From contig JARGPJ010000007.1 in assembly GCA_029212615.1 (NCBI GenBank), forward strand, positions 70,354-134,353: DNA of 64,000 bases, given 5' to 3'. A program made the position numbers and the translations under genes. This document shows, in pieces, positions 2,553 through 54,459 of this stretch. The notes under the pieces are model-generated. The model was given only the letters and a program-made list of their open reading frames with translations. It did no database searches and had not been told where the DNA came from. Every line of letters begins with the position of its first letter. Position 1 is the stretch's first letter. Origin of the DNA: Verrucomicrobiales bacterium (GTDB lineage: Bacteria; Verrucomicrobiota; Verrucomicrobiia; Verrucomicrobiales; DEV007).

Positions 2553-2626
2553 AAAGGCAGGGCGTCTCCGTTTCTGCACCTCTTCATGAGAGGTGAGCAG
2601 GTGACTGAATTGTAACCTTCCTGTTC

Positions 2627-2657
2627 AGGGTGACACGAGTTCGTGTCACCCTTTTTT
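2627..2657 (+). terminator. Intrinsic terminator downstream of the sulfatase
   Basis: AGGGTGACACG-AGTT-CGTGTCACCCT is a perfect 11-bp stem, immediately followed by a T-run (2652-2657), 75 nt after the stop. Confidence 0.85.
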
Positions 2658-2845
2658 GTGTCTGCTAGATGCGTTTTGAGGAGTGTTATCCTCGTAACTG
2701 ATTGATAAGCAGGCATTAAATTTTGTTGCAAATAAACAAAATTAGAATGGACACAAGTCAGGGCTTTTCATTATTCTTCATCAAAATGTCCTCGGTGTCC
2801 CTGCGACACAGGGCACTTTCCCCTCCCCCAAAACCCCCTCAGATC

Positions 2846-5800
2846 ATGAATAATAGCGGTCCTCAGAAGAGGTATCTGTGCACTAAGTGGCGCAAATCCT
2901 CACGTTTTAACACTGTCATTGTTGCCTGTCTCGCGCCGGGCTTATTGTTTTTCGCGGTTCCAATTCAGGCGAATCCGAGTGGTGGAGTGGTTGTGCACGG
3001 TGATATTCATATTGGTGCCGGTTCCGGTGGAAATCTTCAGATTAATCAAAACTCGCTGAAGGCAATCATTAATTGGGATGACTTTTCCATTGATGCCGGT
3101 GAATTGACTCAATTCAACCAGTCGAGCATCAATGCGGCGGTGCTGAACCGGGTCACGGGTGGAAATCCGAGTGAAATTCACGGCGCACTCAAAGCGAATG
3201 GAAGTGTGTTTGTGATCAATCCGAATGGTATTCTCGTGGGGGCGACGGGTACTATCGATGTGCACGGTCTTGTTCTTTCAACGCTGGATGTCAGCAATGG
3301 AGAGTTTCTTGCCGGGGGGGACATGGTTTTCGAAGGAGATGGTGAAGGGGTCACAAATCTGGGGCGGATTAATGCGATTGGCGGAGATGTCTTTCTGATC
3401 GGTAAGACGGTGACAAACTCCGGATCGATCACTGCATCAGGGACGGTAGGCCTGGGAGCGGGTGAAGAGGTTCTCATTACTGCCAGCGAGACCTCTACCG
3501 GTGAGCGGATGTTTGTTCGCTCTACCGGAGCCGGGGCGAGTGGAACCGGGGTCTTGAATGACGGCACGATTCAGGGGGCTGCGATTGAACTGAAGGCCCA
3601 CGGCAATATGTATGCCCTCGCAATCAATAATAAAGGTTCGGTCAGAGCGACGGGAGCGGTTAATTCCGGCGGGCGCGTTTTTCTGAGGGGGGTCGGAGGA
3701 TCGATCAGTAACTCGGGATCGATTCGTGCCTCCAGTCCGGGGGCCGGCCGGGCTGGTCGTATTCTGATCGAGGCGGCCTACGCAAAAGTGGACGGCATGC
3801 TCCGCGCTGAAGCTGGTAAAGTTAGTATTGCCGCGACACATGCCGCGGATCTGGGTGGTTCTGTGGATGTTTCCTCTCTTTCCGGTCGAGGTGGAGCGGT
3901 GACAGTGGAGGCTCCTGATATTTCTCTTTCCGGGACTTCGTCGGTCAATGCCTCAGGCCAAACCGGCGGTGGGGTGATACAGATTGGTGGTGGTTTTCAG
4001 GGAAAGAATGCTGAAATCGAAAACGCGGAAACGCTATCGGTTGCTGCGGGATCAACGATCACTGCCGATTCCCTGGAAAGTGGAAGTGGTGGAGCGGTTA
4101 TTTTCTGGTCCGACGACGTTACCGTTTTTCAGGGGGATCTTTCCGCGCGCGGAACCACCGGGAATGGCGGATTTGCCGAGATCTCCGGCAAGAACACACT
4201 TGGTTTTCATGGTTCGGTGGACCTCGGGTCGGATTCCGGAGCTGGAGGCATGTTGCTCCTGGATCCGACGGATATCACGATTTCCGATAGTCCGGACACC
4301 ATCGGCAATGTCGACAGTGTTGCGCTTTCAAACACGCTCGATACAGGCACGGATGTGATTATCACGAGTAATTTCGGGGCTGCCGGGCCAAACGGGGACA
4401 TCACGGTGAATGATCGCGTCGAGTGGTATCAGGACTCGGCGGCGATTACGGGTGGCACGCTTTCTCTTCTCGCAATGGGGGATGTGATCATCAATGATTC
4501 GGTCAGGAGCGCGGGTGAAGGTGGGATAAATATTGTCGCGGGATGGGACGGCGAAACCGGATTGGCTAATCCTCTCACGGATCTTGATGGTGATGCGCAG
4601 AGCAACGGTGTGCTCTTTAGTATGCAGGATGTCCTCGATACAATGGTGGGAGGTGATTCTGAAGGGCTGGATGACGCGGCGGGAAATGCCGTTGGTACTG
4701 CGAGCGGCTCGATTTTTATCGGGAGTAGTGCCGCGAATGTTCAGATAAATGTGGGCTCCCGCTTCGGAGACACGCTTGTGGCGGGACACGATTTGTTCAT
4801 GCAGGGCGACACCAACACGACCGAGGCCTTTGTGCAGTTGGGGTTCACGGACAACGGGACCGAGTATCAGATATCTGCAGCGAACCGGAACGGTCATGGT
4901 GTGAATAATGGTCTCGTGAATGAGTGGTGGGGGAGTGATGGGTCAGCCACCGGTGCTGATGATGCGACCTCGACGCTCAATGTAACGGGTAAAAATTACA
5001 TTAACCTTCTTGGTGGTACGGAGTTCAGTGGAACGGGCGATGCCGCTTTCCTCGGGGCTGGCAGTGGAGCTACGGGTGACATCGTGACGCGACTCAGTGG
5101 TCGATTGGACATGAAGGCCGGTAGCACGAGGAGTTATGTTCAGATCGGACATGGCGGGAGTGCCGAGGAAGGTTTTGAGGATCGAGCACGAACCCAGCCG
5201 GAGTCATTGGCGACTCGTGACGGATTCACACTCGATACGAGAAATGCTCGTCAGTTTTTCAGCACCACTTGGAAGACGAATACTGAAGCTGATCCGTTCA
5301 ATGGCTCTGCCTACCGGGTTGATGGGGATATCACGATCGAAACGGAAGGCGATATCCTCGTCTTAGCGGCTCCCGCATTATCTGAAGATCCGAATAATGT
5401 AGCGAACGGCAATACTAATCCGGGTAATTATGCCATGATCGGTCATGGTGGATCAGAGAATCATGGTAGCTACCATGGTGATATTTCGGTAATTGCCAAT
5501 GGGGCAGTCGGAGATGGAGCTGAGGGGGCGGATGTGACCGGGTCGCGACTTGAAGGGATTGGTATTGATCTCATCGCGGGACGGGACAGTAACCGCTTTG
5601 CTCGAATCGGTCATGGATCATCAGGCGAGGGTAACCCCAGTTCAATCTACGATCAGAAGCGAAGTGGGGAAATCACGGTCAGGGCAGAGGTGGGCGCGAT
5701 CCGGATGCAGGGATACGAGGAGCCTTTAACAACCAGTCGTTCTGATCAATATTCCGGCGTTCAAATCGGCCACGGGGGGGCCTACGCTGAGGCGCCCCGA

Positions 5801-8800
5801 ACGGACGGGAATTTTACCGGTAATAGCCTGGTTCCTGATATTTCAGGCTCACAGGCCGATACCTCTTCCTGGGGTGATATTACTGTCCTGGCGAACGGAA
5901 CCTATGAGGATCCTAATGATGCCTCATCGTTGATTGGAATTGGAGTCAGGGCGGGGAATGGGCGTTATGCCTATGGTAAAATTGGTCACGGGGGAGCGAA
6001 TCAGCGGGCCTTGAGTTCCGGCGCCGAGGGGTATCAGGGGGACATCGATGTACAAGCGCCCCTTGGGGACATCGTCTTCCAGGGAGCTGCGGACAAGTAT
6101 TCATCCAATGACTTCGGCTACGGTCGGAACCACCTTCAAATTGGTCACGGTGGAACTGACGTTGATGGTGTAAAGGGAGGGCTGATCACGGTCCTGGCAG
6201 GTCAAGGCACCGGTGCGACAGATGGTGATATTTTGTTCTCTGCCGGAAAGCACTATGAGAGTTTCGCCCAAATCGGTCATGGGGGATATGCGGCGTCGGG
6301 AGGTGTAGACAGCCTTGCGAATGAAGCTGACATCAGGGTGAATGCCTATGGTGAGATTTCGTTTGTCTCGGGGGCCTCGGGGACAACAGATGCCATGTTG
6401 GTTTCCCAAGCGTATGCGAATGATTATTTTAATCGCATCACTGCGGGGACTTCGTTTCGGCTTGGCTATTATCAGGCCCAGGACCGTTATGTCATGATTG
6501 GGCACGGGGGGCGGGATGCTGATGGGGTGATTCCGAACGAGCAGGATATCGAAGTGATATCAGGAACCGGGGATGCTGATAATGCCGATGGTGATACGAC
6601 GACGGGAGGCATTACTTTTGTGAGCGGTGACCAGGACAGGGACTTTGCTCAAATTGGTCACGGTGGCTATGCTAATGGAGCAAATGATGCCGATGGATTC
6701 TCCGGTGATATCAACATCGATGCCAGAGGTGGTAGCGTCATTTTCGACGGAAGTATTGTCGGGGCCACCGACTATGAGCTCCGCACTGATGCTTCGTATG
6801 ACGGAGTGAACACCGGCATTCGAACCGTGTCTGCCCTGGAAGGTGGTGCTCGAGCTTACATTCAAATTGGTCATGGTGGCTATGTCACTCGCGGGGATCA
6901 CTCCGGTGAGATAACCATCATTTCCAACGGTTCCGTTGAAATGATTGGAGCTGTTAACAACCCGACTTTCGTTCAGAGTTATACTTCAACGGATGATTTT
7001 TCTGCGATAGAAGCGGGTATTTTGAATCCGGGGGAGAACAAATGGATTAATCTCAATCCCCGCGTGACGACCGCGACTACCCGGACGGACGGGTTTGATC
7101 TTTCTCTCGGGCCGGTAAATGTGAAACCGGGAACACTTACGATCACTCTGGACGATGGGACAGTGATCACAGATTCGCCTGATTTGGCCAGTGATGAGCT
7201 GACCAGTAACATCGTGGATGCTAGTACTGGCAAAGTGCTCGGAACGATCAATTACCAGCGCGCCCGGATTCGTTTCAATACGGATCAAGTAGGTACGGGT
7301 TCGGGAACGGTCGATTCGATGGAGTTCACTTCAATCGAAGGATATAAGCAGGAAGCATACGCCCAGATCGGGCATGGCGGATTGGACGCCGATGGACCGA
7401 ACGATGCCACTAGCGACAATCACATTCTTCCCGGGAATTCCGGTGAGATCACGATTGAAATGGTGGATGGCCTAACTCTCAGCGCGGGGGCTTTTTATCG
7501 CAGCTACGCTCAAATCGGTCATGGAGGTCTCTCCACGAAAGGGCAGCATTCCGATGACATTTCGATCACGGGTATCGGAGGAGTCAATGCCGCGGGAGGA
7601 GTTCTTGCCGTAGCCGGCAACGGTGGGCATCGGAATTATGATAGCCAGGCTTATGTCCTGATTGGTCATGGGGGGCATGAGGCGGATGGAACAAAAGAGG
7701 GGGACATCACAATTCTGGCTGGAGAGAACGGGGATGGCGTCGGTCTTCTGCTGAAAGCGGGGACAAAAGAAGACAATTCCGCGATCATTGGTCATGGTGG
7801 ATATTCTGCCCGGACCGGTGAAGCTGGTGCTGATCTTTCTGAGGGATCCGAAGGCGATATCACGATTGATGTAAGCGGCGATGTCAGTGTCATCGCCGGT
7901 GTTCTCGGAAAGACTCCGGGAACAGATCTCGCGAACAATAACCAGGACGGGCGTCTTTATGCGCAGATTGGTCACGGTGGTTACGATGCGGATACTAACC
8001 AGGATGATGTTGCTGCCGATGCGGCATCAGAAGGGCACCGGGGGGATATTTCGCTCGTGTCTTCGGCAGGCAGCGTCTTTATCGGGGCCGGCGATTTTCT
8101 CAGAGACTCAAACGCCAGTTTCGGGATTGAAGACGGTCAAGTCGCAGGAGGTCGATTAGGCTACGCAATGGTAGGTCACGGCGGCTACTCAGCGAGAGGA
8201 AACCACTATGGTGATATCACTGTACATGCAGGTTTTAACTCAGCGGGCGTGGAGACGGACACGGGTGCTGACGTTTCAGGCATCACCGTTGTCGGCGGCA
8301 TGAATACTCAGGACAACAGCAACGAGCGATTCAGTTTTGCGATGATTGGTCATGGCGGGCGAAGCTCTAATGGTAATATGGGAAGGGAAGATGACTTGAT
8401 CTCCGTGATGGCTGACGGCGATATCGAGTTTCGAGGTGGAGAAGGGCAGGAGAATTTTGTTCAGTTGGGGAACGGGGGGCGCGCTTCCCGCGGGGATCAT
8501 CAGGGGGATATCCAGGTGATTGCTTCCGGGGATATTAGCTTCACGGCTGGAGGTGCTCTCCGGGAAGGCGAGGAGCCTTTTTCCGCCGCTTATTCGGGGG
8601 TGAGCAGTCGTGGCAACTTAAGTATTGATCGCGCGGCGGATACGGATCTGGTGGCAACTCGAAGTAATGGAACGAATGAAGGGCGGGGGATTGGTGAAGT
8701 TAATCTAATCCATCGGGATGTGGTGCCGGGGACACTTCGGTTGACGACGCCTGATGGTGTCGTGGTGATCGATGAAGACGGTGACGGTAGTCTATACGTT

Positions 8801-11800
8801 GTATCGACCGGCGATTTCACTTCGGCCGATCTGGAAAAATCAGGAGTGACTGCGCTCGTGCTGCACGGCGATCCAGGGGCAACCGCGGTGGGCTCGATTG
8901 ACTATGATACCGGTGTGGTTACCTTCGATGCTGATTTTGACATAGATCCAAACTCAGCAGGTGGCGGTACCGATCCGACCTATGCAGCGCGCATTATCGC
9001 AAATTTTGACCATGCGGCTGACAGTGATCACAGTTATGCCCAGTTGGGACATGGTGGATCGGAGTCGGACAATCCGAATGGAGATGTGACTTTGGGACAC
9101 CGCGGAAGTATCAGCGTCGGTTCATTGAATGGTTCGATATCATTCTCCGGAGGGGATGGAACGGCCAGCTACACTCAACTTGGGCATGGTGGGGATTCCA
9201 GCAGGGGTTCCAACGAGGGGGATATAACGGTTCGCGCTGCGCAAAATATCGAGTTCATCGCCGGGAGCGGGATACGGGCTTCGGCGCAATTGGGACATGG
9301 GGGGTATGATGCCGATGCTGACTCGGGAGCGAACGCAGGGCATTCGGGAATTATCAAGGTTTCGGCGGGATCCGGTTCGCTCTTCACTTCTCTGGGAGTG
9401 GGGCAATTCAATGATCTCGGTGATTTCAATTTCGATAGCGTGGCAGATAGTTTCACCTTCGGGGAGACGAATGTGGATTCGGGAGATGTGCTGATTTCAG
9501 GAGGTGATGGAACTGATTCATATGGAATGCTGGGTCATGGGGGACGTGCCGCGGGTGGTGATCATGAAGGAGTGATCGCGGTATCAAGCTTCGGAGATAT
9601 ATCGCTTATCGCAGGGGGCGCTACGAGATCATATGCTCAAGTCGGGCATGGCGGACATGCTTCAGCCGGTGATCTTTCGGGTGATATCCATATCATTGCC
9701 GAAGAAGGCGATATTCTAGTGGATGCAAATGTTGGCAGTGAGGCGTATGCCTTGATCGGTCATGGTGATGACCGGGGTAACAACATCAATAACGCTGCCG
9801 GAAGTCGGGAAGGGGGGATTCAGGTTATTGGCAATACGATCACGCTTGATCGACATGGAAACCGGGCGGCCTGGATTGGTCACAGTTTCAAACGGACCGG
9901 TAACGTGAATAACACTTTTGCGGCAGCGAATGTGGATTTGACTAATGTTTTCCTGGATGGTGGCATTTTGAGTGATGTATATAAAGGCGGTGGATACCAG
10001 GTGATCGCTCTTGATGGATTCGTCGCTACCAACGATGGAGCTGCTGTGTCGAGTGATATTGTGATCACGGACGCATATCGGGACAATTTCATCACGCCAA
10101 ACATCCAGTCGGGGGATTTTGCCCTGAGTGCCGGAAACATCACGGTGGACAGTGATCTGGACAGTACGACAACCTTCGCAACAACGGCGGCTCGAAGTAA
10201 CTATTTCAGTCTCTTTGCGACAGGGAATATCGATGTGAATGAGAGCATTTTGAATCCCGGCACCGGTCACATTAATCTGATTGCAGGGGCTCAATTGGGG
10301 GCGGCGAGTGATTCGGTTCTTCTGGTCGATGCTCCTTCGATCGGTGTCGACGATTACCAGCGAATCAACCACCTCTATTGCCCGCCGACGGGAAGGCTTT
10401 CCTTCAGTGAAGTGAAGGGCGATGGCTTCACTTTTGGCGATTCGACCGGAAGGGTTCAAATCAGTGCTGCGGTGAATGACACCGCAGTCGGTGATTTTCT
10501 TGCCGTCGGTTCCCGCGACGGGGAAACCAATGTCTTTGGTCAGTCAGTGATTGTCACAGGTGGTAATCATACGGGCAACTATGCTCAAATTGGTTTCAAC
10601 AGTATTTCTGCGGAAATTGTCGGGTTTGAGGACACGACGGGAAATGCGACAGGTGATATCATGGTGGAGGCCGGCGCGGGTGGCGTCTCACTTACCGGAG
10701 GTACTATCAATGAGACCTATGCGATGATTGGTCACGGGGGCGATGATATCAATGATACTTCCGGGACCACTGACGATCCGACTCATAGCGGAATGATCTC
10801 GGTACGTGCTGATCGGGTGCTGAGCGGGAATGCCGGCGATATCACGATGACGTCGATTGGCGGAAGTCGATGGACGATGATCGGTCACGGCGGTGATAGT
10901 CTTTCCGGTGATCATTCAGGAGACATTGTGGTGATTGGTCATGATATTACGATGACTGGCGGAAATTTCGGATCACCTTCTCAAATTGGGCATGGTGGAC
11001 TGGGCGTTGAGGGGAACCTGAGTGGAGATATTTACGTTAATTTTGATCCTGACCCTGATCATGATCCGTTGACCGATGATGGCGAAGTTCGCGGTGGAAC
11101 CGGGGAAATTACCCTGAATCGCTCGGGGAATGGTACAGATTCATATCTTCAGATTGGTCATGGTGGACGTCTTTCTAACGGCTCCAAGGACGGCGAAATC
11201 TATATCGGAAAAGCGGCAGGCGTATCGGTTCTGGCCGGCGGAAGACTCGCTTCAAACAGCGCAAGAAGCTATGCTCAGATTGGGCACGGTGGTTCCGGCT
11301 CTTCGGGGGATGTGGGGAGTCTTTCCAATTCAGATATCACGATCAAGGTGGACGGTACCGCCGGCTCGGACAGTGTTGTGGTCAGCGGAGGGCTGGACCA
11401 GTTGAATTACGCGATGATCGGTCATGGCGGGGATTCGGCCACTGCCGGTGGTTCCGGATACTTTGGTGATATCAGCGTGATGGCAGATGCGGGTAATATT
11501 GTGCTGGAAGCAAACTCCGGAGCTGATAATGAGAACACACGTGCTTTTGCGATGGTCGGTCACGGAGGTTATGCCAATGGCGCGCTCAATGGGGACGCGG
11601 ATGGAGATATCACGCTGACGACAGAGGATGGCGGTCTCACGATGACAGGAGGCGCAGACGCCGGCAACAATTTTGCGCAAGTGGGCCACGGAGGATCGAA
11701 TGTCGATGCGACGAATGGTTTTACCGGGAATATCACGGTGTCGACCACTGGTGACATCAGTGCGACAGCGGGAACTGAAGATCTTGACGAAGGGGCCAGT

Positions 11801-14800
11801 GAAAATCGCTACGTCATGATCGGCCACGGCGGATTCGGGAGTAATGGAAGTCATGGAGCCGCTGATGAGGAGATTCGGGTCACTTCTTCTTTGGGGAGTA
11901 TCAATTTTTCAGGGGGCCCGCATTCGAATCATTTCGCTCAGCTAGGTAATGGTGGACGCGGCTCATTGGGAGATCATCAGGGATCGATCTTTGTCAGCGC
12001 AGGAGCAGCCATCAATTTCATTGCCGGGAGCGGAAATGATTCTTATGTGCAGTTGGGGCATGGCGGATATGGCGCTCGCGGAGATCATGGCGGAACTCGC
12101 TTGGTGGAAGGGGTGACGGTCAATCAGGTGATCGACGTTCAGGCGGCGACGGGGATTACTTTTACTGCCGGTCTGGATACCGATACTCTTGAGACAGATG
12201 CAAATGCAGGCAATATGAGAGCCTATGCTCAGCTCGGTCACGGAGGACGCGACGCCGACAATCCGAATCCGGGGAACTATGCCGACAACACTGCAGGTAC
12301 CGCAGGTTTCCCGACGGTGGCACAGCGGGTGGGGAATACTGCTGACATTAGTGTCGTGACGACTGGTGGTGACATTTCAGTGCGGAGTGGAACGCAACGG
12401 GAGAGCTACGCGCAGTTCGGACATGGAGGAGCGTATACGGATGGGGACCACACAGGTGACATGGTCGTTCGTGCGGATGAGGGATCGATCACCTTTGACG
12501 CGAAGACCAGCGTATCCACCGATCCGGATGACCCGACTGATCCAGGCAGTGCGACAGGGTCGAACAATCCAAACGCCCGCTACGTCATGATGGGGCACGG
12601 AGGATATTATGCGTCGGGCAGTCATCACGGCGATATCACTGCCACGGCCGGGACTGACGGAAGCATTTCCTTCTCAGGTGGAAACGGAGATGGAAATGCC
12701 TATGCTCAACTGGGGCATGGAGGAAGGAATGACGACCGGAAGGCCTCGAATGAGAACAACTACAATGATCGCTATTATTCGGGCACTTTGTCCGGTGATA
12801 TTACGGTGACCGCCGATGTGAATATTACTTTTGAGGGAGGTAGCGGAGGTAGCACATATGCTCAGATCGGGCATGGAGGGCTTCGCTCCTCTGCTGATGT
12901 CGATGAAGGGCATGAAGGCACCATTGGGGTTACGGCTTTGAATGGATCGGTTTCCCTGATCGGGGGAACCGGTAGCAATGCCTTTGCCATTGCCGGTCAC
13001 GGAGGATTTCAGTCGATGGGAAATCACGGGATGTTCGATGCGGACGGTTCCGGAATGATTGAGAATGCGATCACGGTTACGGGAGAGACAGGGGTAATCG
13101 TTCAGGGCCGCAGTACTTACGCTTTCGCCCAAATTGGGCATGGAGGATTCAGCTCTTCGTTCGATTCAAGTTTTCTTGGTTCTCCAGAACAAGGTGCAAC
13201 AAATTACCACCTCAATATACCGGTTGCGACGCCGCTCGGTACAGCCGGGAATGTGACGGTGACGTCGAATAGCGGAGGATTGATTCTCGGAGGAGCGTCT
13301 ACGGGGACGGATGGCTATAGTCAGATCGGAAATGGAGGTAGGGCAACCTTCGGTTCGCACACCGGAAATATCACCGTTGATGTTAAGAATAGCATCGATA
13401 TCGAAGCAGGTAGTGGTAGTCGAACCTACGCGATGATCGGAAACGGAGGAAATTCTACGACTGGGACAAACTCAGTAAATGATGGAACGATCACCGTGAA
13501 AAGTTCTGCCGGCTCGCTGTCGCTCGATGGGGGAAGCAGTGGTTCCGCCGGAGCCCAGATTGGGCACGGCGGAGTGAATACGAGATCTGCCACCGGGCTT
13601 ACGACAGATAGTGCGAGGATAGAAGTCAGTATTGCCGGCGCGATCGATCTAACGGCCGGGAGCGGTAACAATGCTTTTGCGCAAATCGGACATGGCGGCA
13701 CGAATTCTAACAGGGATCACCTGGGTAATATTTGTGTCCATGCCGGGAGCACGATCACTCTGGATGCTTATGATAAAGAGGAAACGTCGGGCACGAACTC
13801 ATATGTTCAGATCGGAAACGGGGGATTCAATGCGTGGGCAGACCACAGCGGAAATATCACTGTCGTTTCCGGAACCTCTGCGGCAGGCGGGATTTCTCTT
13901 CTTGGTGGCGGGGACAAAGGGCGCTCAGCGCAGATTGGGCATGGGGGCGCAAACGCCGCAGCTCGTATCGTTAATCTTGCCGGCGAAATCGTGGTCGTTT
14001 CAGACAACGGAGGGGGACTTACGATGAAGGGCGGAAATGAGATTGAGAGTTTCTCTATGGTGGGTCATGGCGATGGTTACGGCACCTATGGAGATCCTGA
14101 CAGTGGAAACACCGGAGGAACCCGTCAGGGAGGTATTCAGTACTATATCGATGATGCCTATTCCTTCACGGCGGGGGGGACGGACAGCAATGTTTATCTA
14201 CATCACCGGACAAACACGGATGGAGGGTTAAACCTGGACAGCCCGAGCCCGACTTATCTTGGCGGTAGTGGATATCAATTCCTCGTGAATGATATCGGAA
14301 ACAGTGTTGATTCGACAAGTGGCGGGGCCTTTGAAGGAAACAACGTGATGATCGGTGGGAACGTTGGCCTTGGCGATGTGGTCGTGACGTTCGATGGTGA
14401 TCTCACGGTGGATGTTCCAGATTCCTTTGTTTTTGACAGTGTGGACCACGATTTCAACTTCGTGGTGCTTGCGACGGGTAATCTGAATTTTAATCGGAAT
14501 TATCAGAATGCCGGCACCGGAGATGTTGCTCTCGTGGCCGGTTGGAGTGGTGTTCAGGCTCCTTCGAGCGTTACTTATGTGGAAGTTGACGGGGAACTCA
14601 GTTTCTGTGATCCGATTCTCTCAGCCGGAGCTGCAGATTATGACGATAAGACCTCATGGGGAAATATTGCCGGTGGTGATCATGCCGGGGCGGGCGCTTC
14701 CGGAGGTAGGCTGACGATAGGGGATGCTGCGAATACCGGTTCGGTCGTCGTTGGAACACAAGGTGGATCGACTATTCTACGCGGCTATGAGATTGAGATT

Positions 14801-17800
14801 CTCGGTGGTGCAAGTGCCGACGCATTCACTCAGGTTGGTTTTATTACAAGTGTAGGGAGCGTTGCCGGTGCCGATCCTGCCCTGGCGGGATATAGGCCTT
14901 CGATAGACATTCAAGCCCGCGAGGGAGGCCTCACTTTGCAGGGGGGAGAAGGAGCTGGAGCTTATGCGCAGATCGGTCACGGTGGTGCAGACTCCACCGC
15001 TACGCAGATTGGCGATACTTTCGGTGCTGATATCGTGATTTCGTTTTGCGAGCCGGGTGATCTCATCCTCGGTTCGCTTACTGCCGGAGGCTATGCCCAG
15101 ATTGGCCACGGAGGTAGTGGTGCTTCGTTTACCGGGATCGATGGCGATATCACGATTGGCGGGGCCCGGGAAGTGGATCTTCAGGGAGGAGATACTGCCG
15201 GTGCCTATGTGCAAATTGGGCACGGGGGAGACAACACCGGTGTCGCGACTGTAGGTGCAAAAGAAGGTCTCATCCAGATCTCCGAATCGACCAGTATCAC
15301 CGTGGAAGGGGGATCGACTTCCGATACTTTTGCTCAGATTGGGCATGGTGGTAACGAGAACCTCGGAGATAGCAGTGGCAATATTGAACTTACCACGACC
15401 GGTAAACTTGAGATTATGTCAGGATCCGGAACTGATTCATACGCTCAGGTGGGGCACGGAGGGCGCCTCGCTGACGGAGATCACGGAGTGGCCGGTGATA
15501 AGATTGACGTAAAGGCCGCTTCGCTGAATGTGCAGGCGGTGGGAACCACTGCGCATGCTCAGCTCGGTCATGGTGGATATCAGACAGAGGGGAATTACAC
15601 GGCCGACATTCTGGTGAACTTTAACTCGACTCCGGCGGCCCCGGGAGCGCTTGAGGTCACGGCGAGTGACGGTTCGAACGCTTACGCTCAAATCGGACAT
15701 GGTGGTGCCATTAATGTGACGGGAAATGACAATACTAAAGGCGGCGATATTGATGTCAGTGGTTTCAGTAGTGTGGCTCTGACGGGGGGGAGTGGATTTG
15801 ACGCCTTTGCTCAAATTGGACACGGTGGTGACGGGAATGATGGCGATATCACGGGTGACGTCCGCGTCGATACGACAGGGGCAGTGACCCTTCAGGGGGA
15901 TGCGGCGGCAGTAGATGATCGTGGAGATGGCTATGTTCAGATTGGACACGGTGGTCACGAAGTGGATGGCATCATCGGTGCAGCTGATGGATCGAACGAG
16001 ACAGTGGTGATCGCTGATGGCGGTGTCTCACTGGCGGGTGGAGGACGCCCCCGGGCCTATGCTCAAATCGGATTCGGTGGCAATGGTAGCGACGCAAGCA
16101 CGATCATTACCGGCGGAACCTATGTTAATTTTGATCCTGCTACGATGTCTGAGGACGGCGGTGGGGCAATCAGCCTGACAGGAGGAGCCGGTGAATCGGC
16201 TTCGGCGATGATCGGCATGGGAGGCGTTGACTCTGCTGCGGCTCTTGAAGGGGATGTGACCGTCTATGGGGCAAGTCTCGGTCTCACGGCAACGACTTCT
16301 GCTGGTGCAGAGAGCTCAAGTGCTCAAATCGGTCATCGTGGCGATGGCGTTGAAGGAGAGATTCTGGTTGAGGTGGACGGAAATGCCACGATATCGGCAG
16401 CCTCCGGAATCAGGGGCTTTGCTACGGTCGGTCACGGCGATGCCAATAATTCTGATGGAGTGACGGAGGGAAATATTCACCTTGGAGTGGGTGGAAACCT
16501 GCAGCTCAATTCCGGTGACGGTTCCGGTGGAAATTTCGCTACGGTTGGGCATGCACGGAATTCCGAAGGAAGCATCGGCGGAGATATTTTCGCTCATGTG
16601 GACGGCAGTGCTATCTTGAATGCAGCGGCGGCGAACTCTTCCAGTTCGAACAGTCAGATCGGCCACTTCGGCTTCAGTGGCGAGGTCGACTCGACAGGAG
16701 TTGTCACGCTGCTGGCGACTGATGGTGTTGTATTGACGGCTTCAGCAGGAAGCATGGGTGCCGCACAAGTAGGGCACAGCAGTCTCGGCGGGGGAGATTT
16801 CTCCGGAAGTGTCTCTGTGGTTTCAGAAGGCAATATTGCTCTGACGGGAGGATCTGATGCTTCCAGCGTTGCCGCAATCGGGCACGGATTAGCCTCAGTT
16901 TCCGGAACGCACACGGGGGGTGTCAATGTCTACACTACCGGTTCGATCACGATGAGTGATGGCGCCAGCGGCGGAGCCCTGATATCGCACCAGACGTCCG
17001 AGGGTGTTGCTGAGGTTGACTATCTCGCTTCTGAGGGAGGTGATAGCGGTTACTCTATCGTTGCCCTTGGCGGCCTTGATCTGGCGGATACCCTCGATCA
17101 GCAGACCGGAGACAGCGGCGTCATTACTTTGACGGAGACCATCGCCAAAGCGCTCGTTGCCGATGATGTCACGATTGCGTCGGGTGGCACAGCAAACAAT
17201 CTTGTGATCGGTGATGGAACGCAGTCGGTCACCTACGATTCAGACAATAACCTTGCGATTCTCTCGGGAGGCGATTTGACGATTAACTCAGGGATTCAAA
17301 ACACCGGGGAGGGAGCGATCGGCCTGCTCGCCGGGTGGAGCAACAGTGGAAGCACGGCGGCGTTGGCTCCGCTCATGGCAGGACTGCATGACAAGGCGGT
17401 TCCTGTTCTGGGTGATCTGGCGCTTCCCGATTTTTCCTCGATCAGTATCAACGGTCCGGTCGCGGCGACGGAATTTGGTGACGACAGTGCGATTGTCCGC
17501 ATTGGTGACGGGACTCAGACAACCGGTATCAGTGTAGGTTCAAGAAATGGCGTCACTGAGATTCTGGGTGACGGAATTGAGGTGACCGGAAGCATGGCTG
17601 ATGATGCCTATGCGCAGCTTGGATACTTCAGTCCGGACGCAACGACGGACACTTCGACAATCGATGGCGATCTGAACCTTTCATCCGGCGCCGGCGGCAT
17701 CACGGTGGAAGGAGGGCGTGGGGAGAATACCTTTGCTCAAGTCGGTCACGGGGGCATCCTCGAAGGGCCTGAAATTGACGCTGATATCGATGTGCGGCTC

Positions 17801-19486
17801 ACTGCGGCGGGTGCAATCAGTGTTTCAGGCGGGGGTGATGAATTTGCCTATGCTCAGCTTGGACACGGCGGATCTGGTTATGTGGGTGACCTTGGTGGTT
17901 CGATCATCACCGATGGAAATGTCACGACTGCCACCGTCGAAGGAGGGACTTCAACCGGTGCTTACGCTCAGTTGGGTCATGGCGGGGCCGAATCGGAAGG
18001 CGCGAAGACAGGCGTGATCACTCTGGAAGCTGAATCTATTCTCGTGGATGGTGGTTCACTTGGGCTTGCCAGTGCTCAGATCGGTCATGGCGGTAATGCG
18101 TCGAGCGGCACGCTTGAGGGAGCGCTTACAGTGACCTCAACGGTGGGCGATGTGACAGTGTCCGGAGGAGATTTTTCCGGGGCAAATGCTCAGATCGGAC
18201 ATGGCGGGTTGGAGTTCAGTGGTGCGGTAACTTCACAGCCTCTCACCATTACTTCAGCCAATGACGTTCTTGTTTCAGGTGGAACGACAACGAGTGGAAT
18301 GATTGGGCATGGCGGGACCCTGGCTTCAGGCGGGCCGATTCGCAGTGATATCACGGTCACGGCGGCAGGGGACGTGACCCTGAACGATGGAAGCGGCGCC
18401 CTCGCCTTTGCCCAGATCGGAAATGGAGGTGCTGTTGCCGGCGGTACGCAGGGCGGGGATATTTCAGTCACTGGAGTTAATGTTAATCTGACGTCCACGG
18501 GGACCATTGCGGGGACTTACACGAAGATTGGCCATGGAGATTATTACCGTGGGGCCCTGGCGAGCTTCGGTGGTACAGGAGCCCGTGAGGGGGATATTGA
18601 AGTGAGTGCAACAGGAGATGTCATCCTCTCGAAATCCCTGATCGGTCATGGAAGCGCAAACAGTCAGGCGTTGATTGACCCTGCGAGCAGCACTCAGATC
18701 AAAGCGGGTGATGACCTTATCGCCAATGCAGATTCCCAGTTGAACGGGGGATCGGAGTTTCGAGCCTATCTCAATGAGCGTAAGGACAACAAGGTGGCAT
18801 CCGGTGTCGTCATTAATGGCGATGCTACGTGGACAGGTGCTGAGACGGACCCCTCTCCTCAAGTCGACAGTGAATTCACTCGCTCCATCACCGGTGAGAA
18901 TCCAAGTTCACCTTTGGAGCACACGGGGGCGTTTGACAGTGGGCCGGAACCGACCAACCCTGCTGGATTTGCCTTCTATTACGACACAATTGCCATCGGC
19001 GTTGCCGATGGAACGGATCCCGATCCCGGTCCAGGAGGCGGTCCGGATCCTGTGCCAGGAGGTGGCGGTACCGGAGGAGATCCTCTTGGCGAGGTGGCTA
19101 ATACTGCAAATCAAGGAAGTACTTCATTCTGGAGCGATGTTATTGCAGCAATAGGTGGGAGTGATGAGTTGTCTCCTGAAGATCGACTTATCCGGGAGAA
19201 TCAGAAAGCGCAGGAGGAATACATCACACGATTCAACAACTTCATCATCGAGTACCGGGGGTTTGATCAATATTCTCCTTCAGGTGAAAGCATCTATTCC
19301 TACATTTTATCAAGCGGCAGACTGCTTGAGGCCGGAGCAGAGGCAGATGCGGATGAAGAAGATGCCCTTCGTCGACTGCGCCGCACGATGCAGCAAATTC
19401 AGGCGTCTGAGGAAGCTCAGGAAGAGAATGCCGCTCAGGAGCAAGCGAGTGAAGAGATGGGAGATGTTCCTCTCGCGGTGCGTTAG
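2846..19486 (+). CDS. Giant TpsA/filamentous-haemagglutinin-like exoprotein (~5,550 aa) with AQIGHGG repeats
   Basis: Uninterrupted ORF. The track starts at TTG 2723. ATG 2846 is preferred because it gives a basic-then-hydrophobic signal peptide ending [10 protein letters not shown]. TPS domain motifs: 'IINWDDFSI', 'VLNRVTG', '[11 protein letters not shown]'. Later come 'GGFAEISG' and '[10 protein letters not shown]'. The body is a Gly/Asp/Ser/Thr-rich beta-repeat. Confidence 0.9.
   Translation: [5546 protein letters not shown]
2972..3360 (+). other. Haemagglutination-activity/TPS secretion domain of the giant protein (approximate limits)
   Basis: [10 protein letters not shown]...QINQNS...IINWDDFSI...[34 protein letters not shown] matches the canonical TpsA N-terminal domain pattern. 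Confidence 0.88.
5135..18655 (+). repeat. Coding repeat array: ~75 copies of [FY]-[AV]-[QM]-[ILV]-G-H-G-G separated by 'G.I.V' / 'I...AG/GG' beta-strand spacers
   Basis: Hand count from the translation: about 76 motifs, about 68 with His. The rest read GNGG, GFGG or GMGG. Codons differ between copies, so this is an old protein-level repeat, not a DNA tandem repeat. Confidence 0.9.
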
Positions 19487-20058
19487 TCAAAATTGGATCG
19501 TCGCTCTACCGCGATGAGATAGGGCGGCGAATTCCGTTGATTAATGGTCTGATAAAGGATCACGGTAAAGATCGATTGATCCAGTTCAGTTGCCCACGCT
19601 TCTACTTGTTTTGCTTCTCTCTCTCCTTCCGGGTGTCCGGGGTAAAGAACAACAGTAATAATTCCGCCAGCTTCGAGGAGTGCGATCACCGAATTCAGCG
19701 CTGCGACAGTCGTTTCCCCACCGGTCGTGATCTGCTTATCGCCGGCAGGGAGATAGCCGAGGTTAAATGTCGCGGCCTTTACGGGAGAGTGGATGATCTC
19801 CGGGATATTTTCGTGACCGGTATGATGGAGTGCCACCTGTTGCATGCCGTTGGTTCGTTCCCGGGTATTCCGAATCGCAGCCTCTTGAATATCGAAACAC
19901 GAGACGAGACCATTTCCTCCCACGGTTTGAGCAAGAAAGAGCGAGTCGTGCCCGTTGCCGGCGGTGGCATCGATGACCGAGTCTCCGGGCTGCACCCGCT
20001 CACGAATGAGGGAGTGAGCCATTTGAATCGCTCTCTTGAGTTGAGGAGGTTTTCCCAT
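19483..20058 (-). CDS. Class I SAM-dependent methyltransferase, YtqB/MnmM-like (putative tRNA mnm5s2U34 methyltransferase)
   Basis: Motifs 'IDATAGNGHDSLFLA', 'FDIQEAAI', 'GHEN', 'FNLGYLPAGDKQITT' and 'VLYPGHPEG' are characteristic of the YtqB/'putative rRNA methylase' family. Confidence 0.8.
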   Translation of the reverse strand: MGKPPQLKRAIQMAHSLIRERVQPGDSVIDATAGNGHDSLFLAQTVGGNGLVSCFDIQEAAIRNTRERTNGMQQVALHHTGHENIPEIIHSPVKAATFNLGYLPAGDKQITTGGETTVAALNSVIALLEAGGIITVVLYPGHPEGEREAKQVEAWATELDQSIFTVILYQTINQRNSPPYLIAVERRSNFD

Positions 20059-34126: not shown

Positions 34127-34188
34127 GGACAGAATGAAGCTTCCGGATAAATATGCCGTTAGTTTTCTTCAGCAACGGCAGTGATAGG

Positions 34189-34752
34189 ATGAAGCGCATG
34201 AAGCCCGAAGCCACATTGTCTAATTCTGAAGATGATCGTTATGAGACGTTCGTGAGTTGCTTTGCGCATCACGAGCCGGATTTGAGACGTTTCATTCGTT
34301 CGCTGCTCCCCACCTGGACGGATACCGATGAGGTTCTTCAACAGACCGCGATCGTGATCTGGCGAAAGTTTGATCAGTACGATCCGGCAACCAATTTCAT
34401 GAAGTGGGCCTGTGTCATCGCCCGGTTTGAGTCGCTTGCTTATCGGCGGAAGATGGCTCGTGACCGACTTGTCTTTCGGGAGGATGTGCTGGAGCTGATG
34501 GCTGATGAAGGTATTGAGGAAATAGATAGTCGCCGAACGGAGCATGAAGCACTTGAGGCCTGTCTACTTGCGATGCCGGAAAAGCAGCGACAGTTTCTGA
34601 CGCTCGCTTATACGCCCGGGGTAAAAGTAAAAGAGATGGCGGAGGAAGCGGGATCCAGCGCGGCCTCTTTCTACATGCGTTTGAAGAGATTGAGGCGTCA
34701 ACTGATGGAGTGCATGGAAAGCAAAACGAATACGGCGGGAGCAATGCCATGA
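34189..34752 (+). CDS. ECF sigma-70 factor (Planctomycetes/Verrucomicrobia type)
   Basis: 'LRRFIRSLLP', 'DEVLQQT..VIWRKF', 'FMKWACVIARF', 'CLLAMP', 'LKRLRRQLMEC'. Overlaps the FecR gene by ATGA. Confidence 0.9.
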   Translation: MKRMKPEATLSNSEDDRYETFVSCFAHHEPDLRRFIRSLLPTWTDTDEVLQQTAIVIWRKFDQYDPATNFMKWACVIARFESLAYRRKMARDRLVFREDVLELMADEGIEEIDSRRTEHEALEACLLAMPEKQRQFLTLAYTPGVKVKEMAEEAGSSAASFYMRLKRLRRQLMECMESKTNTAGAMP

Positions 34753-36422: not shown

Positions 36423-36483
36423 TTTGTTTCCGGGCCGAACGGCGATCCTGAATTTCTCCCGAATTTTACCGGAACGCAGTATC

Positions 36484-37353: not shown

Positions 37354-37502
37354 GGAATTCGGCGATTCAATTTTAGTTAACAAATCTTAATAATATCGCA
37401 ACTTTTTATAAAAATTCCAGCCTTTATCTGGCGTGATCACTTGAGCGCAATCAGAGAATCATTCCTGTTCGATTCGCTCGGATTCCTGCGTAGAATGCGT
37501 TC

Positions 37503-38285: not shown

Positions 38286-38310
38286 GCCTGATTTGATGGT
38301 TGTGTTAATT

Positions 38311-38323
38311 ACTGAAATTCAGT
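38311..38323. promoter_or_regulatory. Candidate operator palindrome upstream of the PEP-CTERM gene
   Basis: ACTGAA-A-TTCAGT perfect inverted repeat flanked by AATT on both sides, ~70 nt before ATG 38395. Confidence 0.3.
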
Positions 38324-38394
38324 GAATTGAGAGAAAAATTCTGTTTGATCCTGGGTTAGGGCATCGGTTATACAAGGGGCGTTACCATTTTTTT

Positions 38395-42975: not shown

Positions 42976-43045
42976 AACTGTCGCCCGAAGTCGTTGGCCT
43001 GCATTTTTTCGGTTAACTTTTTCACCCGTCGGCAGTGATAGGGTG

Positions 43046-54293: not shown

Positions 54294-54459
54294 GGGCGCC
54301 CTCCTAATCTCGAACGCGAAAAGGGTCAAACGCTTCGTGAGAAATTGGCGCTGTTCGTTCCTGAGTTCCAGCCTCCCCGCGGCTCCTCTAGCGGGATGCG
54401 GCGTTTATTCGTCGCCGAATCTTCTTTGTTTTAGGAGTGGGTTTCGAGAGAGTCCTTTC

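What the first reader, a model, noticed from the sequence alone, without database searches (positions are those of the whole stretch)
2846..19486. Giant TPS-type exoprotein built from ~75 His-containing AQIGHGG repeats: candidate His-ladder beta-solenoid
Seen: after a canonical TPS domain, ~4,500 aa are organised around a [FY][AV][QM][ILV]GHGG motif (about 76 copies by hand, about 68 with His). The protein is otherwise Asp/Gly/Ser/Thr-rich and Lys-poor. Established: TpsA proteins form long beta-helices, but the FHA, HMW1 and CdiA repeats I know do not carry a near-invariant GHGG. Inference: the His residues stack into a ladder along a very long filament. It could bind metal or heme, conduct protons, or bind polyanionic (sulfated) glycans, which would fit the sulfatase-rich neighbourhood. 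This is the best candidate here for an undescribed system.
Basis: partly seen in the sequence, partly recalled or inferred. Interest (0 to 1): 0.8.

Follow-up and report, generated by a model that had tools for sequence, protein, structure and literature searches.

The report
Giant secreted fibre with undescribed repeat
A marine Verrucomicrobiales bacterium encodes a 5,546-residue secreted fibre protein made of about 80 copies of an uncatalogued 38-residue repeat, and the repeat's conserved histidine looks like a structural "zipper" residue rather than a metal, heme or sugar binder.

Summary
The ORF 2846-19486 (+) encodes a 5,546-aa, 554-kDa protein. It has a signal peptide, a canonical TPS domain, and 82 units of a 38-aa repeat (consensus ..GDHSGDITVTAAGDITFTGGSGDRAYAQIGHGG). 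GHGG occurs 56 times against 0.9 expected by chance.

The repeat matches no Pfam, NCBIfam or PDB entry, and I found no paper describing it. It does define a rare family: 777 clusters among 1.84 billion representatives. Members are mostly giant, multi-copy TpsA proteins of marine Verrucomicrobiales. Some relatives have a TpsB gene next door; none lies in this window.

AlphaFold models the array confidently (pLDDT 87, pTM 0.91) as all-beta. Evolutionary couplings indicate one unit per rung of a three-sided solenoid, with the His at an inner corner against Ile12 and Gly10, stacked on the His of the neighbouring rung.

The His is not essential to the family. Whole proteins use Asn or Gln at that position, with compensating changes at position 12. 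This points to a structural polar ladder.

Metal, heme, proton-wire and sulfated-glycan roles are unsupported. The protein has a net charge of about -442 and no CxxCH motif, and a terminator separates it from the sulfatase gene.

Verdict: a new repeat variant of a known kind (a two-partner-secretion fibre or adhesin), of moderate interest.

The parts
2846..19486 (+). Giant TpsA-type exoprotein gene (5,546 aa, 554 kDa, pI 4.2)
   Evidence: ORF list and translation; physico-chemical values; independent contig with 0 differences
2748..2777 (+). Sigma-70-like promoter match upstream of the gene (weak, consensus match only)
2846..2971 (+). Predicted Sec signal peptide (aa 1-42: basic n-region, hydrophobic TVIVACLAPGLLFFAVPI, cleavage after IQA)
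   Evidence: read directly from the sequence; no signal-peptide predictor was run
2969..3727 (+). TPS secretion domain with NPSEI (3164-3178) and NPNGI (3218-3232) motifs
   Evidence: PF05860 E 2e-30, TIGR01901 E 5e-23; best PDB sequence relatives are EtpA 8vba E 7e-45, HMW1 2odl and HxuA 4i84
3728..5047 (+). Post-TPS beta-rich region ending in the first 'launch' module (..INIVAGWDG..VGSRFGDT..FVQLGF)
   Evidence: sequence comparison of the four modules; no family hit
5048..9766 (+). GHGG array 1 (aa 735-2307), interrupted by two related inserts of about 100 aa (6998-7345 and 8648-9025)
   Evidence: unit HMM; inserts related at E 5e-5
9767..10498 (+). Spacer 1: array terminator (YALIGHGDD..) plus launch module 2
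10499..14071 (+). GHGG array 2 (aa 2552-3742)
14072..14722 (+). Spacer 2: terminator plus launch module 3 (..VALVAGWSG..)
   Evidence: the homologous module in P0001 and P0003 is seen
14723..16981 (+). GHGG array 3 (aa 3960-4712). Nine units (14987-16081) were modelled by AlphaFold2 at pLDDT 87.2, pTM 0.91, all-beta
16982..17524 (+). Spacer 3: launch module 4 (..IGLLAGWSN..VGSRNGVT..YAQLGY)
17525..18658 (+). GHGG array 4 (aa 4894-5271), ending in the conserved terminator (YTKIGHGD..GTGAREGDIEV..LIGHGS)
18659..19000 (+). Conserved C-terminal cap of the array (..LIANADSQ..FRAYLNERKDN..NG..DPSP..EFT..FAFYYDTI). It is shared with Verrucomicrobiota and Chloroflexota homologues
   Evidence: alignment A2; sequences
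19001..19180 (+). Pro/Gly-rich linker
   Evidence: sequence; low pLDDT
19181..19333 (+). Conserved tail motif (PEDR..(W).RE.E..Y..F...YYEGF.QY...GESIY; here ..IIEYRGFDQYSPSGESIY)
   Evidence: present in 23 family members
19355..19459 (+). Acidic C-terminal helix, the only confidently modelled part of the tail
   Evidence: model residues 309-343, pLDDT 72-89
2627..2652 (+). Terminator-like hairpin (11-bp stem plus T run) between the upstream sulfatase gene and the giant gene. It is a boundary, not part of the protein

Best explanation
This is the passenger (TpsA) of a two-partner (type Vb) secretion system in a marine Verrucomicrobiales bacterium. It is a very long, highly acidic cell-surface or released fibre, most plausibly an adhesin or surface-coat filament.

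Proposed route (steps marked as shown or inferred):
1. The Sec signal peptide takes it to the periplasm (inferred from the sequence).
2. The TPS domain (shown) is recognised by a TpsB Omp85 transporter. None is encoded in this 64-kb window, but one lies directly upstream of some relatives (shown for relatives, inferred here).
3. The chain folds outside the cell from the N terminus to the C terminus (inferred from what is established for FHA-type TpsA proteins).

Structure of the array. The shaft is built from four arrays, 82 units in total, of a previously uncatalogued 38-residue repeat. Each unit forms one rung of a three-sided beta-solenoid.
- Strand 1 is D-I-T-V, strand 2 is D-I-T-F-T and strand 3 is Y-A-Q-I.
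- Ile12, Val14, Ile20, Phe/Leu22, Ala32 and Ile34 fill the core.
- Positions 13, 15, 21 and 23 form variable outer faces rich in Ser, Thr, Asp and Asn.
- The invariant Gly35, Gly37 and Gly38 make the tight corner.
- His36 points into that corner against Ile12 and Gly10 and stacks on His36 of the next rung.

The His ladder is therefore a structural polar ladder. It is analogous to the Asn ladders of pectate-lyase-type beta-helices and LRRs, and it is interchangeable with Asn or Gln in relatives. It is not a ligand-binding site.

At 4.8 A per rung, the 82 rungs alone give roughly 40 nm of fibre. The conserved cap, the Pro/Gly linker and the YYEGF tail may stay at the cell end and tether the fibre or regulate its release, as the FhaB prodomain does. 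This last point is low-confidence inference.
For: Secretion class:
- TPS domain and motifs.
- The closest solved relatives of the N-terminal domain are the TpsA adhesins EtpA, HMW1 and HxuA.
- TpsB genes (ShlB plus POTRA_2) lie 400-2,300 bp upstream of homologous giants in L052, L055 and L071.

Repeat and family:
- The repeat is real and far above chance.
- 124 homologues were found by word search and 777 representative clusters by exhaustive HMM search, many of them 4,000-7,000 aa.
- 80 genomic loci are almost all in Verrucomicrobiales/Akkermansiaceae MAGs, with 4-6 paralogues per genome and tandem giants.

Fold:
- The AlphaFold2 model of nine units is all-beta with the same 3-4 strands in every unit, pLDDT 87.2 and pTM 0.91.
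- The best but non-significant Foldseek hits are beta-solenoids: TibA, PL6 lyases, tapirin, CsgA, SufD and MpAFP.
- Mean-field DCA on 1,058 adjacent unit pairs gives top couplings between the same column of neighbouring units: F22-F22', I12-I12', I34-I34', H8-H8' and H36-H36'. It also gives intra-unit couplings I12-H36, G10-H36, F22-I34, G24-A32 and V14-I34, and the outer contact Q33-Y31'.
- Low and high column entropy alternate along strands 1 and 2.

Structural role of His36:
- The position is His 78%, Asn 15%, Gln 3% over 4,585 units.
- His at column 12 occurs only with Asn36 (52 of 52). Thr12 goes with Gln36 (78 of 122).
- The association survives permutation within proteins: 148 observed against 122.7 +/- 3.0, with 0 of 2,000 permutations reaching it.
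Against: - No TpsB gene lies in the 64-kb window, so the partner is inferred.
- Model coordinates could not be inspected. The inward orientation of His36 rests on covariation, conservation alternation and the DSSP pattern, not on measured solvent exposure.
- Same-column couplings between neighbouring units can be inflated because tandem repeats share descent.
- Foldseek finds no significant structural neighbour (E >= 0.2 in PDB, >= 6e-3 in BFVD, TM <= 0.32). 'Three-sided beta-solenoid' is therefore an interpretation.
- The outer face of strand 3 (Tyr31, Gln33) is conserved. A purely structural account of the repeat does not explain this.
- No expression, localisation or binding data exist. Only DNA runs were found.
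- The adhesin role is by analogy.
Confidence: 0.66

Rival explanations
1. Functional His ladder: the stacked imidazoles bind metal ions or heme, or relay protons or electrons along the filament.
For: There are 64 GHG sites in one protein, and a second semi-conserved His (column 8, 30-38% His) with flanking Asp or Asn. Both show unit-to-unit coupling. His is the majority state (78%) in the family. A surface His ladder that binds polyoxometalate clusters exists in an LRR protein (PMC9525666).
Against: - Entire family members replace His with Gln (P0140, P0152, P0158, P0168) or Asn (Chloroflexota P0018, P0058, P0070).
- Position 36 covaries with the core Ile12 and with Gly10, as expected for a packed, buried side chain.
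- There is no CxxCH motif and only 6 Cys.
- Column 8 His is only 30% conserved.
- No redox or metal-handling genes are linked.
Confidence: 0.1
2. Sulfated-glycan (polyanion) binding adhesin that works together with the neighbouring sulfatases.
For: A sulfatase gene lies immediately upstream (987-2552), and at least three more sulfatases are in the window. The upstream sulfatase is syntenic in the orthologous loci L001, L002, L004 and L048. The strand-3 outer face carries a conserved Tyr/Gln stripe, which in principle could stack on sugars.
Against: - Net charge is about -442 at pH 8.1 (664 Asp+Glu against 225 Lys+Arg), and His is neutral at seawater pH. Electrostatics therefore oppose polyanion binding.
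- A terminator-like hairpin separates the sulfatase from the giant gene.
- Most paralogues sit in other contexts or in tandem with other giants.
- Sulfatases are scattered along the whole window, so adjacency says little.
Confidence: 0.1
3. Calcium-dependent beta-roll-like solenoid: the acidic, Gly-rich loops (G-D-H-S-G-D, GGSGD) bind Ca2+ or Mg2+ from seawater. This drives folding outside the cell and stiffens the fibre. It is compatible with the best explanation as an added mechanism.
For: The protein is extremely acidic and Lys-poor. Asp or Asn is enriched at loop columns 5, 7, 11, 19 and 28-29. Ca2+-bound solenoids (MpAFP 3p4g, RTX 7rah) are among the weak Foldseek hits.
Against: No HemolysinCabind or other Ca-binding family hit at E<=0.1. 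No loop Asp exceeds 35% conservation. GG.G.D occurs only 5 times. The Foldseek hits are not significant.
Confidence: 0.25
4. Contact-dependent inhibition (CdiA-like) toxin delivery filament.
For: It is a TPS-secreted giant, the family has multiple copies per genome, and the genes occur in tandem.
Against: No VENN, ELYN or NEALV pre-toxin motif. The C-terminal 350 aa are conserved across paralogues and genomes rather than polymorphic. No small immunity-like ORF follows; the next gene is a convergent rRNA methylase. There is no toxin family hit.
Confidence: 0.03

Closest known systems
Bordetella FhaB/FHA and related TpsA adhesins (EtpA of ETEC, HMW1, HxuA)
   Same: N-terminal TPS domain with NPxxI and NPNGI motifs. 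EtpA 8vba (E 7e-45), HMW1 2odl (E 1e-30) and HxuA (E 1e-21) are the closest solved sequences. Relatives have a ShlB/POTRA_2 TpsB next door. It has a long all-beta repetitive shaft and a non-repeat C-terminal region after a Pro-rich linker, reminiscent of the FhaB prodomain.
   Different: No match to the FHA repeat families (Fil_haemagg PF05594, PF13332) at E<=0.1. The rung is 38 residues instead of about 19-20. It has a near-invariant G-[HNQ]-G-G corner. The arrays are organised with launch and cap modules. No TpsB is adjacent here. It comes from a free-living marine Verrucomicrobiales bacterium.
Asparagine ladders of right-handed beta-helices (pectate lyase type) and of LRR proteins; histidine ladder of the FNIP-type LRR Crov588 (PMC9525666)
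   Same: One polar side chain per rung at a turn, stacked along the solenoid axis. Asn, Gln and His are interchangeable here. Flanking Gly residues allow the tight turn.
   Different: Here His is the majority residue and appears to be packed against a core Ile. In Crov588 the His ladder lies on the concave surface. The H-bond partners in this protein are not known.
RTX beta-roll and the Ca2+-dependent beta-helical antifreeze MpAFP region IV
   Same: Gly- and Asp-rich repeats in a secreted, acidic, Lys-poor giant. Both appear among the weak structural neighbours.
   Different: No GGxGxDxUx nonapeptide periodicity, no HemolysinCabind hit, a 38-residue rung, and three strands per rung.
Uncharacterised 'beta strand repeat-containing' or 'filamentous hemagglutinin N-terminal domain-containing' proteins of Verrucomicrobiota, Planctomycetota, Chloroflexota, Chlamydiota and Alphaproteobacteria
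   Same: The same 38-aa YAQ[IL]G[HNQ]GG unit, and the same launch module, cap and tail. This window's protein is a member of this unnamed family.
   Different: The Chloroflexota members lack the TPS domain and carry DUF11 or Calx-beta domains and GNGG units. So the array is a module that also occurs outside two-partner secretion.

Membership tests
TpsA passenger of two-partner (type Vb) secretion | N-terminal TPS domain (PF05860/TIGR01901) with conserved NPNL-like and NPNGI motifs | tested here: met
   PF05860 E 2e-30 over 249 of 252 profile positions; TIGR01901 E 5e-23; NPSEI aa 107-111 and NPNGI aa 125-129
TpsA passenger of two-partner (type Vb) secretion | Sec-type signal peptide before the TPS domain | tested here: inconclusive
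   A basic n-region, a hydrophobic core and an IQA|NP site are visible in the sequence. No dedicated predictor was available.
TpsA passenger of two-partner (type Vb) secretion | Cognate TpsB (Omp85 family, POTRA plus ShlB barrel), usually in the same operon | tested here: not met
   No ShlB, POTRA or Omp85 hit was found in any scanned ORF across the 64-kb window. TpsB genes lie directly upstream of homologous giants in L052, L055 and L071, so a distant partner is plausible. It was not shown for this genome.
TpsA passenger of two-partner (type Vb) secretion | Extended beta-helical passenger | tested here: met
   AF2 gives a regular all-beta repeat model with pLDDT 87 and pTM 0.91. Couplings fit stacked rungs. 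Structural neighbours are beta-solenoids, but not significantly so.
FHA-type haemagglutinin repeats (Pfam Fil_haemagg PF05594 / Fil_haemagg_2 PF13332) | Match to the ~19-20-residue FHA repeat profiles | tested here: not met
   No hit at E<=0.1 in any of six overlapping segments covering the whole protein.
CdiA contact-dependent inhibition toxins | Pre-toxin VENN (or ELYN/NEALV) motif, a polymorphic C-terminal toxin and a downstream immunity gene | tested here: not met
   The motifs are absent. The C terminus is conserved across the family. The downstream gene is a convergent rRNA methylase.
RTX calcium-binding beta-roll | Tandem GGxGxDxUx nonapeptides (PF00353) | tested here: not met
   No PF00353 hit. 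GG.G.D occurs only 5 times in 5,546 aa.
Multihaem / haem-binding proteins | CxxCH haem-attachment motifs | tested here: not met
   None present; only 6 Cys in total.
Unnamed YAQIG[HNQ]GG 38-residue repeat family (defined here) | Tandem 38-aa units with invariant G35, G37 and G38, a polar residue at 36, the hydrophobic pattern I12/V14/I20/F22/A32/I34, and the launch (..AGW..VGSR.G.T..YAQ.GF) and cap (..RFY.P.R.NN....NG....DP....FAFYYD) modules | tested here: met
   82 units; column statistics; modules aligned with homologues

The most novel reading that the evidence does not exclude
In the His-type subfamily, including this protein, the inner-corner His36 ladder acts together with the second His8 ladder and the acidic loops. 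It would then be more than a passive zipper. It could be a pH- or metal-gated folding switch: dozens of semi-buried imidazoles would keep the chain unfolded or labile until it reaches seawater pH and divalent cations. Or it could be a linear array of metal sites inside a new 38-residue-rung solenoid fold that has no solved counterpart.
Probability: 0.1. Interest if true: 0.75.

Novelty: new variant of a known kind. Interest (0 to 1): 0.45.

Why it matters
It defines a repeat family that no domain library names. The repeat builds some of the largest proteins of marine Verrucomicrobiales. Genomes carry 4-6 copies of at least 3,800 aa each, often in tandem, which amounts to tens of kilobases per genome.

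These bacteria are important degraders of algal polysaccharides, and the way they attach to particles is poorly understood. A dominant family of secreted 40-nm-plus fibres is an obvious candidate for that role.

Structurally, the confidently modelled array has no significant neighbour in the PDB or BFVD. It also offers a natural example of a His/Asn/Gln-interchangeable polar ladder with a clear compensatory partner. That is useful for beta-solenoid design and for annotating 'hypothetical' giants.

It does not, on present evidence, reveal a new biochemical activity.

Tried and rejected
- **Pfam and NCBIfam** on the whole protein in six segments: only the TPS domain hit. DUF5649 (PF18886), seen in some homologues, maps to a different region and not to the GHGG units.
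- **PHROGs** on the two inserts and the C terminus: nothing meaningful.
- **PDB sequence search** with the array profile: only a spurious designed protein at E 0.04.
- **Foldseek** of the array model against PDB and BFVD: no significant hit.
- **AlphaFold2** of the C-terminal 351 aa with a 19-sequence alignment: pLDDT 51, unusable apart from an acidic helix, so no fold search was run on it.
- **Literature searches** for 'GHGG repeat', for a histidine ladder in beta-helices, and for TPS in Verrucomicrobia. There was no description of this repeat. Context on PVC huge proteins came from PMC11573180.
- **First HMM iteration**: it failed because of an alignment-format problem and was redone.
- **Two rungs per unit**: I considered that the 38-aa unit might be two 19-residue rungs, since the halves ITIGG and VQIGHGG look alike. 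I rejected this because the strongest couplings have a separation of exactly 38, and the intra-unit couplings link strands 1, 2 and 3 into one core.
- **Short 'joints' in the read-laying table**: these are 20-24-nt matches from paralogous contigs, not rearrangements.
- **RNA evidence**: none. Only marine-metagenome DNA runs hold the sequence.
Full report
**1. The observation**

The + strand carries one uninterrupted ORF, 2723-19486 in the ORF list. With the ATG at 2846 it encodes 5,546 aa.

The N terminus reads as a Sec signal peptide (basic stretch, TVIVACLAPGLLFFAVPI, then IQA|NP). It is followed by a canonical TPS domain: Pfam PF05860 at aa 42-294 with E 2e-30, and TIGR01901 with E 5e-23. 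The NPSEI and NPNGI motifs are present.

The rest of the protein gives no Pfam or NCBIfam hit at E<=0.1.

GHGG occurs 56 times, GHG 64 times and [ILVMF]G.GG 64 times. Shuffles that keep the composition give 0.87 GHGG on average, with a maximum of 6. A profile of the unit finds 82 units at i-E<0.01 and 73 at i-E<1e-4.

Composition is G 18.4%, S 9.4%, D 8.2%, T 7.8% and K 1.06%. The protein is 554 kDa with pI 4.2 and a net charge of about -442 at pH 8.1.

There are no DNA-level tandem repeats. An independent Logan contig of a marine-metagenome run covers 2500-19800 at even depth with no differences. The gene is therefore not an assembly artefact.

**2. Anatomy**

The unit is 38 aa long, with consensus SRGADGDHSGDITVTAAGDITFTGGSGDRAYAQIGHGG.

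The units fall into four arrays: aa 735-2307, 2552-3742, 3960-4712 and 4894-5271. Each array is preceded by a related 'launch' module (..Q/N.G.G.I.L.AGW....VGSR.G.T....YAQ.GF). Arrays 1-3 end in a terminator of the form YA.IGHGD.

Array 1 contains two related inserts of about 100 aa (E 5e-5). They match no known family.

After array 4 come three elements:
- a conserved cap (..FRAYLNERKDN..NG..DPSP..EFT..FAFYYDTI);
- a Pro/Gly linker;
- a conserved tail (..PEDR....YYEGF.QY...GESIY type), followed by an acidic helix.

This same C-terminal architecture is found in 23 other family members. AlphaFold could not model it (pLDDT 51).

**3. Surroundings**

The window looks like a PVC-type marine genome. 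It encodes PSCyt1/PSCyt2/PSD1 and DUF1501 proteins, several sulfatases, LamG proteins and GH127.

No ORF in the window matches ShlB, POTRA or Omp85, so no TpsB is encoded nearby.

The upstream sulfatase gene ends in an 11-bp-stem hairpin with a T run at 2627-2652. The downstream gene is convergent. The giant gene therefore looks monocistronic.

**4. Relatives**

A word-indexed search with array 3 found 124 proteins. They come mostly from Verrucomicrobiota, with some from Planctomycetota, Chloroflexota, Chlamydiota and Alphaproteobacteria. Their names are 'hypothetical', 'beta strand repeat-containing' or 'filamentous hemagglutinin N-terminal domain-containing'. All carry YAQ[IL]G[HN]GG arrays.

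An exhaustive profile search of 1.84 billion representatives found only 777 clusters at E<=1e-3, and 338 at E<=1e-30. Many of these proteins are 4,000-7,000 aa long. The family is real but rare.

A genome scan with the N-terminal 500 aa returned 80 loci, almost all in Verrucomicrobiales/Akkermansiaceae MAGs, with a best identity of 72%. Single genomes hold 4-6 loci, for example BCK34, NAT23 and 7_bin.19. Nearly every ORF runs off the 10-kb flank at 3,800 aa or more, with 36-68 units.

In 11 loci the upstream ORF is another giant. In L052, L055 and L071 the upstream gene is a TpsB with ShlB and POTRA_2 domains. L001, L002, L004 and L048 share the upstream sulfatase and are the syntenic orthologues.

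The Chloroflexota members lack the TPS domain and combine GNGG arrays with DUF11 or Calx-beta domains. The array is thus an autonomous module.

**5. Structure**

AlphaFold2 on nine units (aa 4048-4412), with a 17-row alignment of in-register arrays, gave pLDDT 87.2 and pTM 0.91. The model is all-beta, with the same short strands in every unit: columns 7-9, 12-23 and 31-34.

Foldseek found no significant neighbour. In the PDB the best hits are beta-solenoids (TibA, PL6 lyases, tapirin, CsgA, SufD, MpAFP) at E>=0.2 and TM<=0.24. BFVD gave E>=6e-3. A PDB sequence search with the array profile found nothing relevant. The TPS domain matches EtpA, HMW1 and HxuA.

Model coordinates are not returned by the tools, so I inferred the geometry from evolution. 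I used 1,976 aligned units and 1,058 adjacent unit pairs (effective number 908) and ran mean-field DCA.
- The top couplings link the same column in neighbouring units: F22-F22', I12-I12', I34-I34', H8-H8', H36-H36', Y31-Y31' and V14-V14'.
- The intra-unit couplings are I12-H36, G10-H36, F22-I34, G24-A32, F22-A32, I12-I34 and V14-I34.
- On the other face there is a contact Q33-Y31'.

Column entropy alternates between low and high along strands 1 and 2.

Together these results say the following:
- One unit forms one rung.
- There are three strands around a core of I12, V14, I20, F/L22, A32 and I34.
- The outer faces are variable.
- His36 sits at the inner corner between strand 3 and the start of strand 1.

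One caveat applies. Same-column couplings between tandem units can be inflated by shared descent. The intra-unit couplings do not have that problem.

**6. What the histidine does**

Over 4,585 units from 267 proteins, column 36 is His 78%, Asn 15% and Gln 3%. G35, G37 and G38 are invariant.

Whole proteins use GQGG (P0140, P0152, P0158, P0168) or GNGG (Chloroflexota P0018, P0058, P0070).

The partner column 12 changes along with column 36. His12 occurs only with Asn36 (52 of 52). Thr12 goes with Gln36 (78 of 122). Ile or Val at 12 goes with His36.

When column 36 is shuffled within each protein, the association in the same unit remains: 148 observed against 122.7 +/- 3.0, with 0 of 2,000 shuffles reaching it. 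It is weaker with the next unit and absent with the previous one.

A side chain that is freely swapped for Asn or Gln, with size-compensating changes at a core Ile, behaves like a packed structural ladder. This resembles the Asn ladders of beta-helices and LRRs. A His ladder is also known in an LRR protein (PMC9525666). It does not behave like a ligand site that requires imidazole.

There is no CxxCH motif and there are only 6 Cys. The strong negative charge argues against binding sulfated polyanions. The sulfatase adjacency is separated by a terminator and is not shared by the paralogues.

**7. Mechanism proposed**

Steps and their basis:
1. Sec export, then recognition of the TPS domain by a TpsB encoded elsewhere. 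The domain is shown; the partner is inferred from relatives.
2. Vectorial folding outside the cell into a solenoid with 38-residue rungs. This rests on the model and the couplings.
3. Four arrays, each started by a launch module and capped, give about 40 nm of shaft from the 82 rungs alone. This assumes 4.8 A per rung, from general knowledge of beta-solenoids.
4. The acidic, variable outer faces and the multi-copy, tandem gene organisation fit a surface fibre or adhesin family. This is by analogy with FHA, EtpA and HMW1.
5. The cap, linker and tail may play a tethering or regulatory role like the FhaB prodomain. This is speculative.

Ca2+-assisted folding is a reasonable addition but is unproven. 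There is no RTX hit, and the loop Asp residues are at most 35% conserved.

**8. Comparison and novelty**

The protein meets the TPS-domain and beta-passenger criteria of a TpsA, but not the adjacent-TpsB criterion. It fails the FHA-repeat, CdiA, RTX and haem tests (see the membership table).

It belongs to an unnamed repeat family for which I found no Pfam or NCBIfam model, no solved structure and no paper. Huge haemagglutinin-like proteins and the enrichment of huge proteins in PVC bacteria are already recognised in general terms (PMC11573180).

I therefore rate it a new variant of a known kind. The repeat, its 38-residue rung and the His/Asn/Gln ladder with its compensating partner are new descriptions. 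The biological role as a secreted fibre is conventional.

**9. Verdict**

The specific functional proposals are not supported. Interest is 0.45.

The residual novel possibility is a pH- or metal-gated or metal-binding His ladder in the His-type subfamily, within a solenoid fold that has no solved counterpart. I put this at about 10%.

Noticed in passing
window 6998-7345 and 8648-9025 (aa ~1385-1500 and ~1935-2060 of the giant): Two related non-repeat inserts of about 100 aa interrupt array 1 (V.PGTL.(I/L)T..DG.V..D ... G(T/S)I(N/D)Y....(I/V).F..D; BLASTP E 5e-5). They have no Pfam or PHROG family. They could be small domains that protrude from the shaft and are candidates for the actual binding module.
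   Followed up: partly
unit columns 31 and 33 throughout window 5048-18658: Tyr31 and Gln33 appear to face outward on strand 3, yet they are conserved (62-82% Y/F, 74% Q). They couple diagonally between rungs (Q33-Y31', one of the five strongest non-self couplings). This conserved surface stripe is unexplained: it could be loop packing, self-association or ligand binding.
   Followed up: partly
In this protein 11 of 37 well-aligned units have it.
   Followed up: partly
L015/L018/L079 (JBLXHA010000019), L005/L008 (JAEUHI010000061), L057/L067 (JBLWYI010000020), L029/L035 (DDTJ01000012), L033/L049 (PAAG01000058): Homologous giants occur in tandem, up to three TPS starts on one contig spaced about 16-25 kb apart. 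Single genomes hold 4-6 paralogues, a very large coding investment.
   Followed up: partly
protein P0019 (915 aa, JGI metagenome): The C-terminal part of a ShlB-type barrel (PF03865) is fused directly to a GHGG array with no TPS domain. This is either a gene-call or assembly chimera of adjacent tpsB and tpsA genes, or a real fusion.
   Followed up: no
proteins P0018, P0028, P0058, P0070, P0072 (Chloroflexota: Caldilineaceae, Litorilinea): These are GNGG-type arrays with His moved to column 12 (G-N-H-S-G-N-H). They have no TPS domain and are combined with DUF11, Calx-beta or other Ig-like domains. The array module therefore also exists outside type V secretion.
   Followed up: partly
window 2627-2652: A strong terminator-like hairpin (11-bp stem with 7 GC pairs, followed by TTTTT) lies just after the sulfatase gene at 987-2552.
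   Followed up: yes
window 19483-20058 (-): A convergent rRNA-methylase-family gene (PF06962) overlaps the stop codon of the giant gene by 4 bp.
   Followed up: no
window 42944-48842: A PSCyt1/PSCyt2/PSD1 protein, a sulfatase and a DUF1501 protein lie in a row. This is the typical PVC 'planctomycete cytochrome' pair, here with a sulfatase between the two genes.
   Followed up: no
window 34153-42975 and 50190-53282 (-): A FecR-plus-LamG protein (34710-36422) is followed, after an intervening stretch, by a 1,526-aa LamG protein. A further 1,030-aa LamG protein lies on the other strand. This looks like an ECF sigma/anti-sigma-associated set of secreted LamG proteins.
   Followed up: no
window 53391-54329 (-): A DUF6731 protein (E 3e-22) sits between a LamG giant and a sulfatase. 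Its function is unknown.
   Followed up: no
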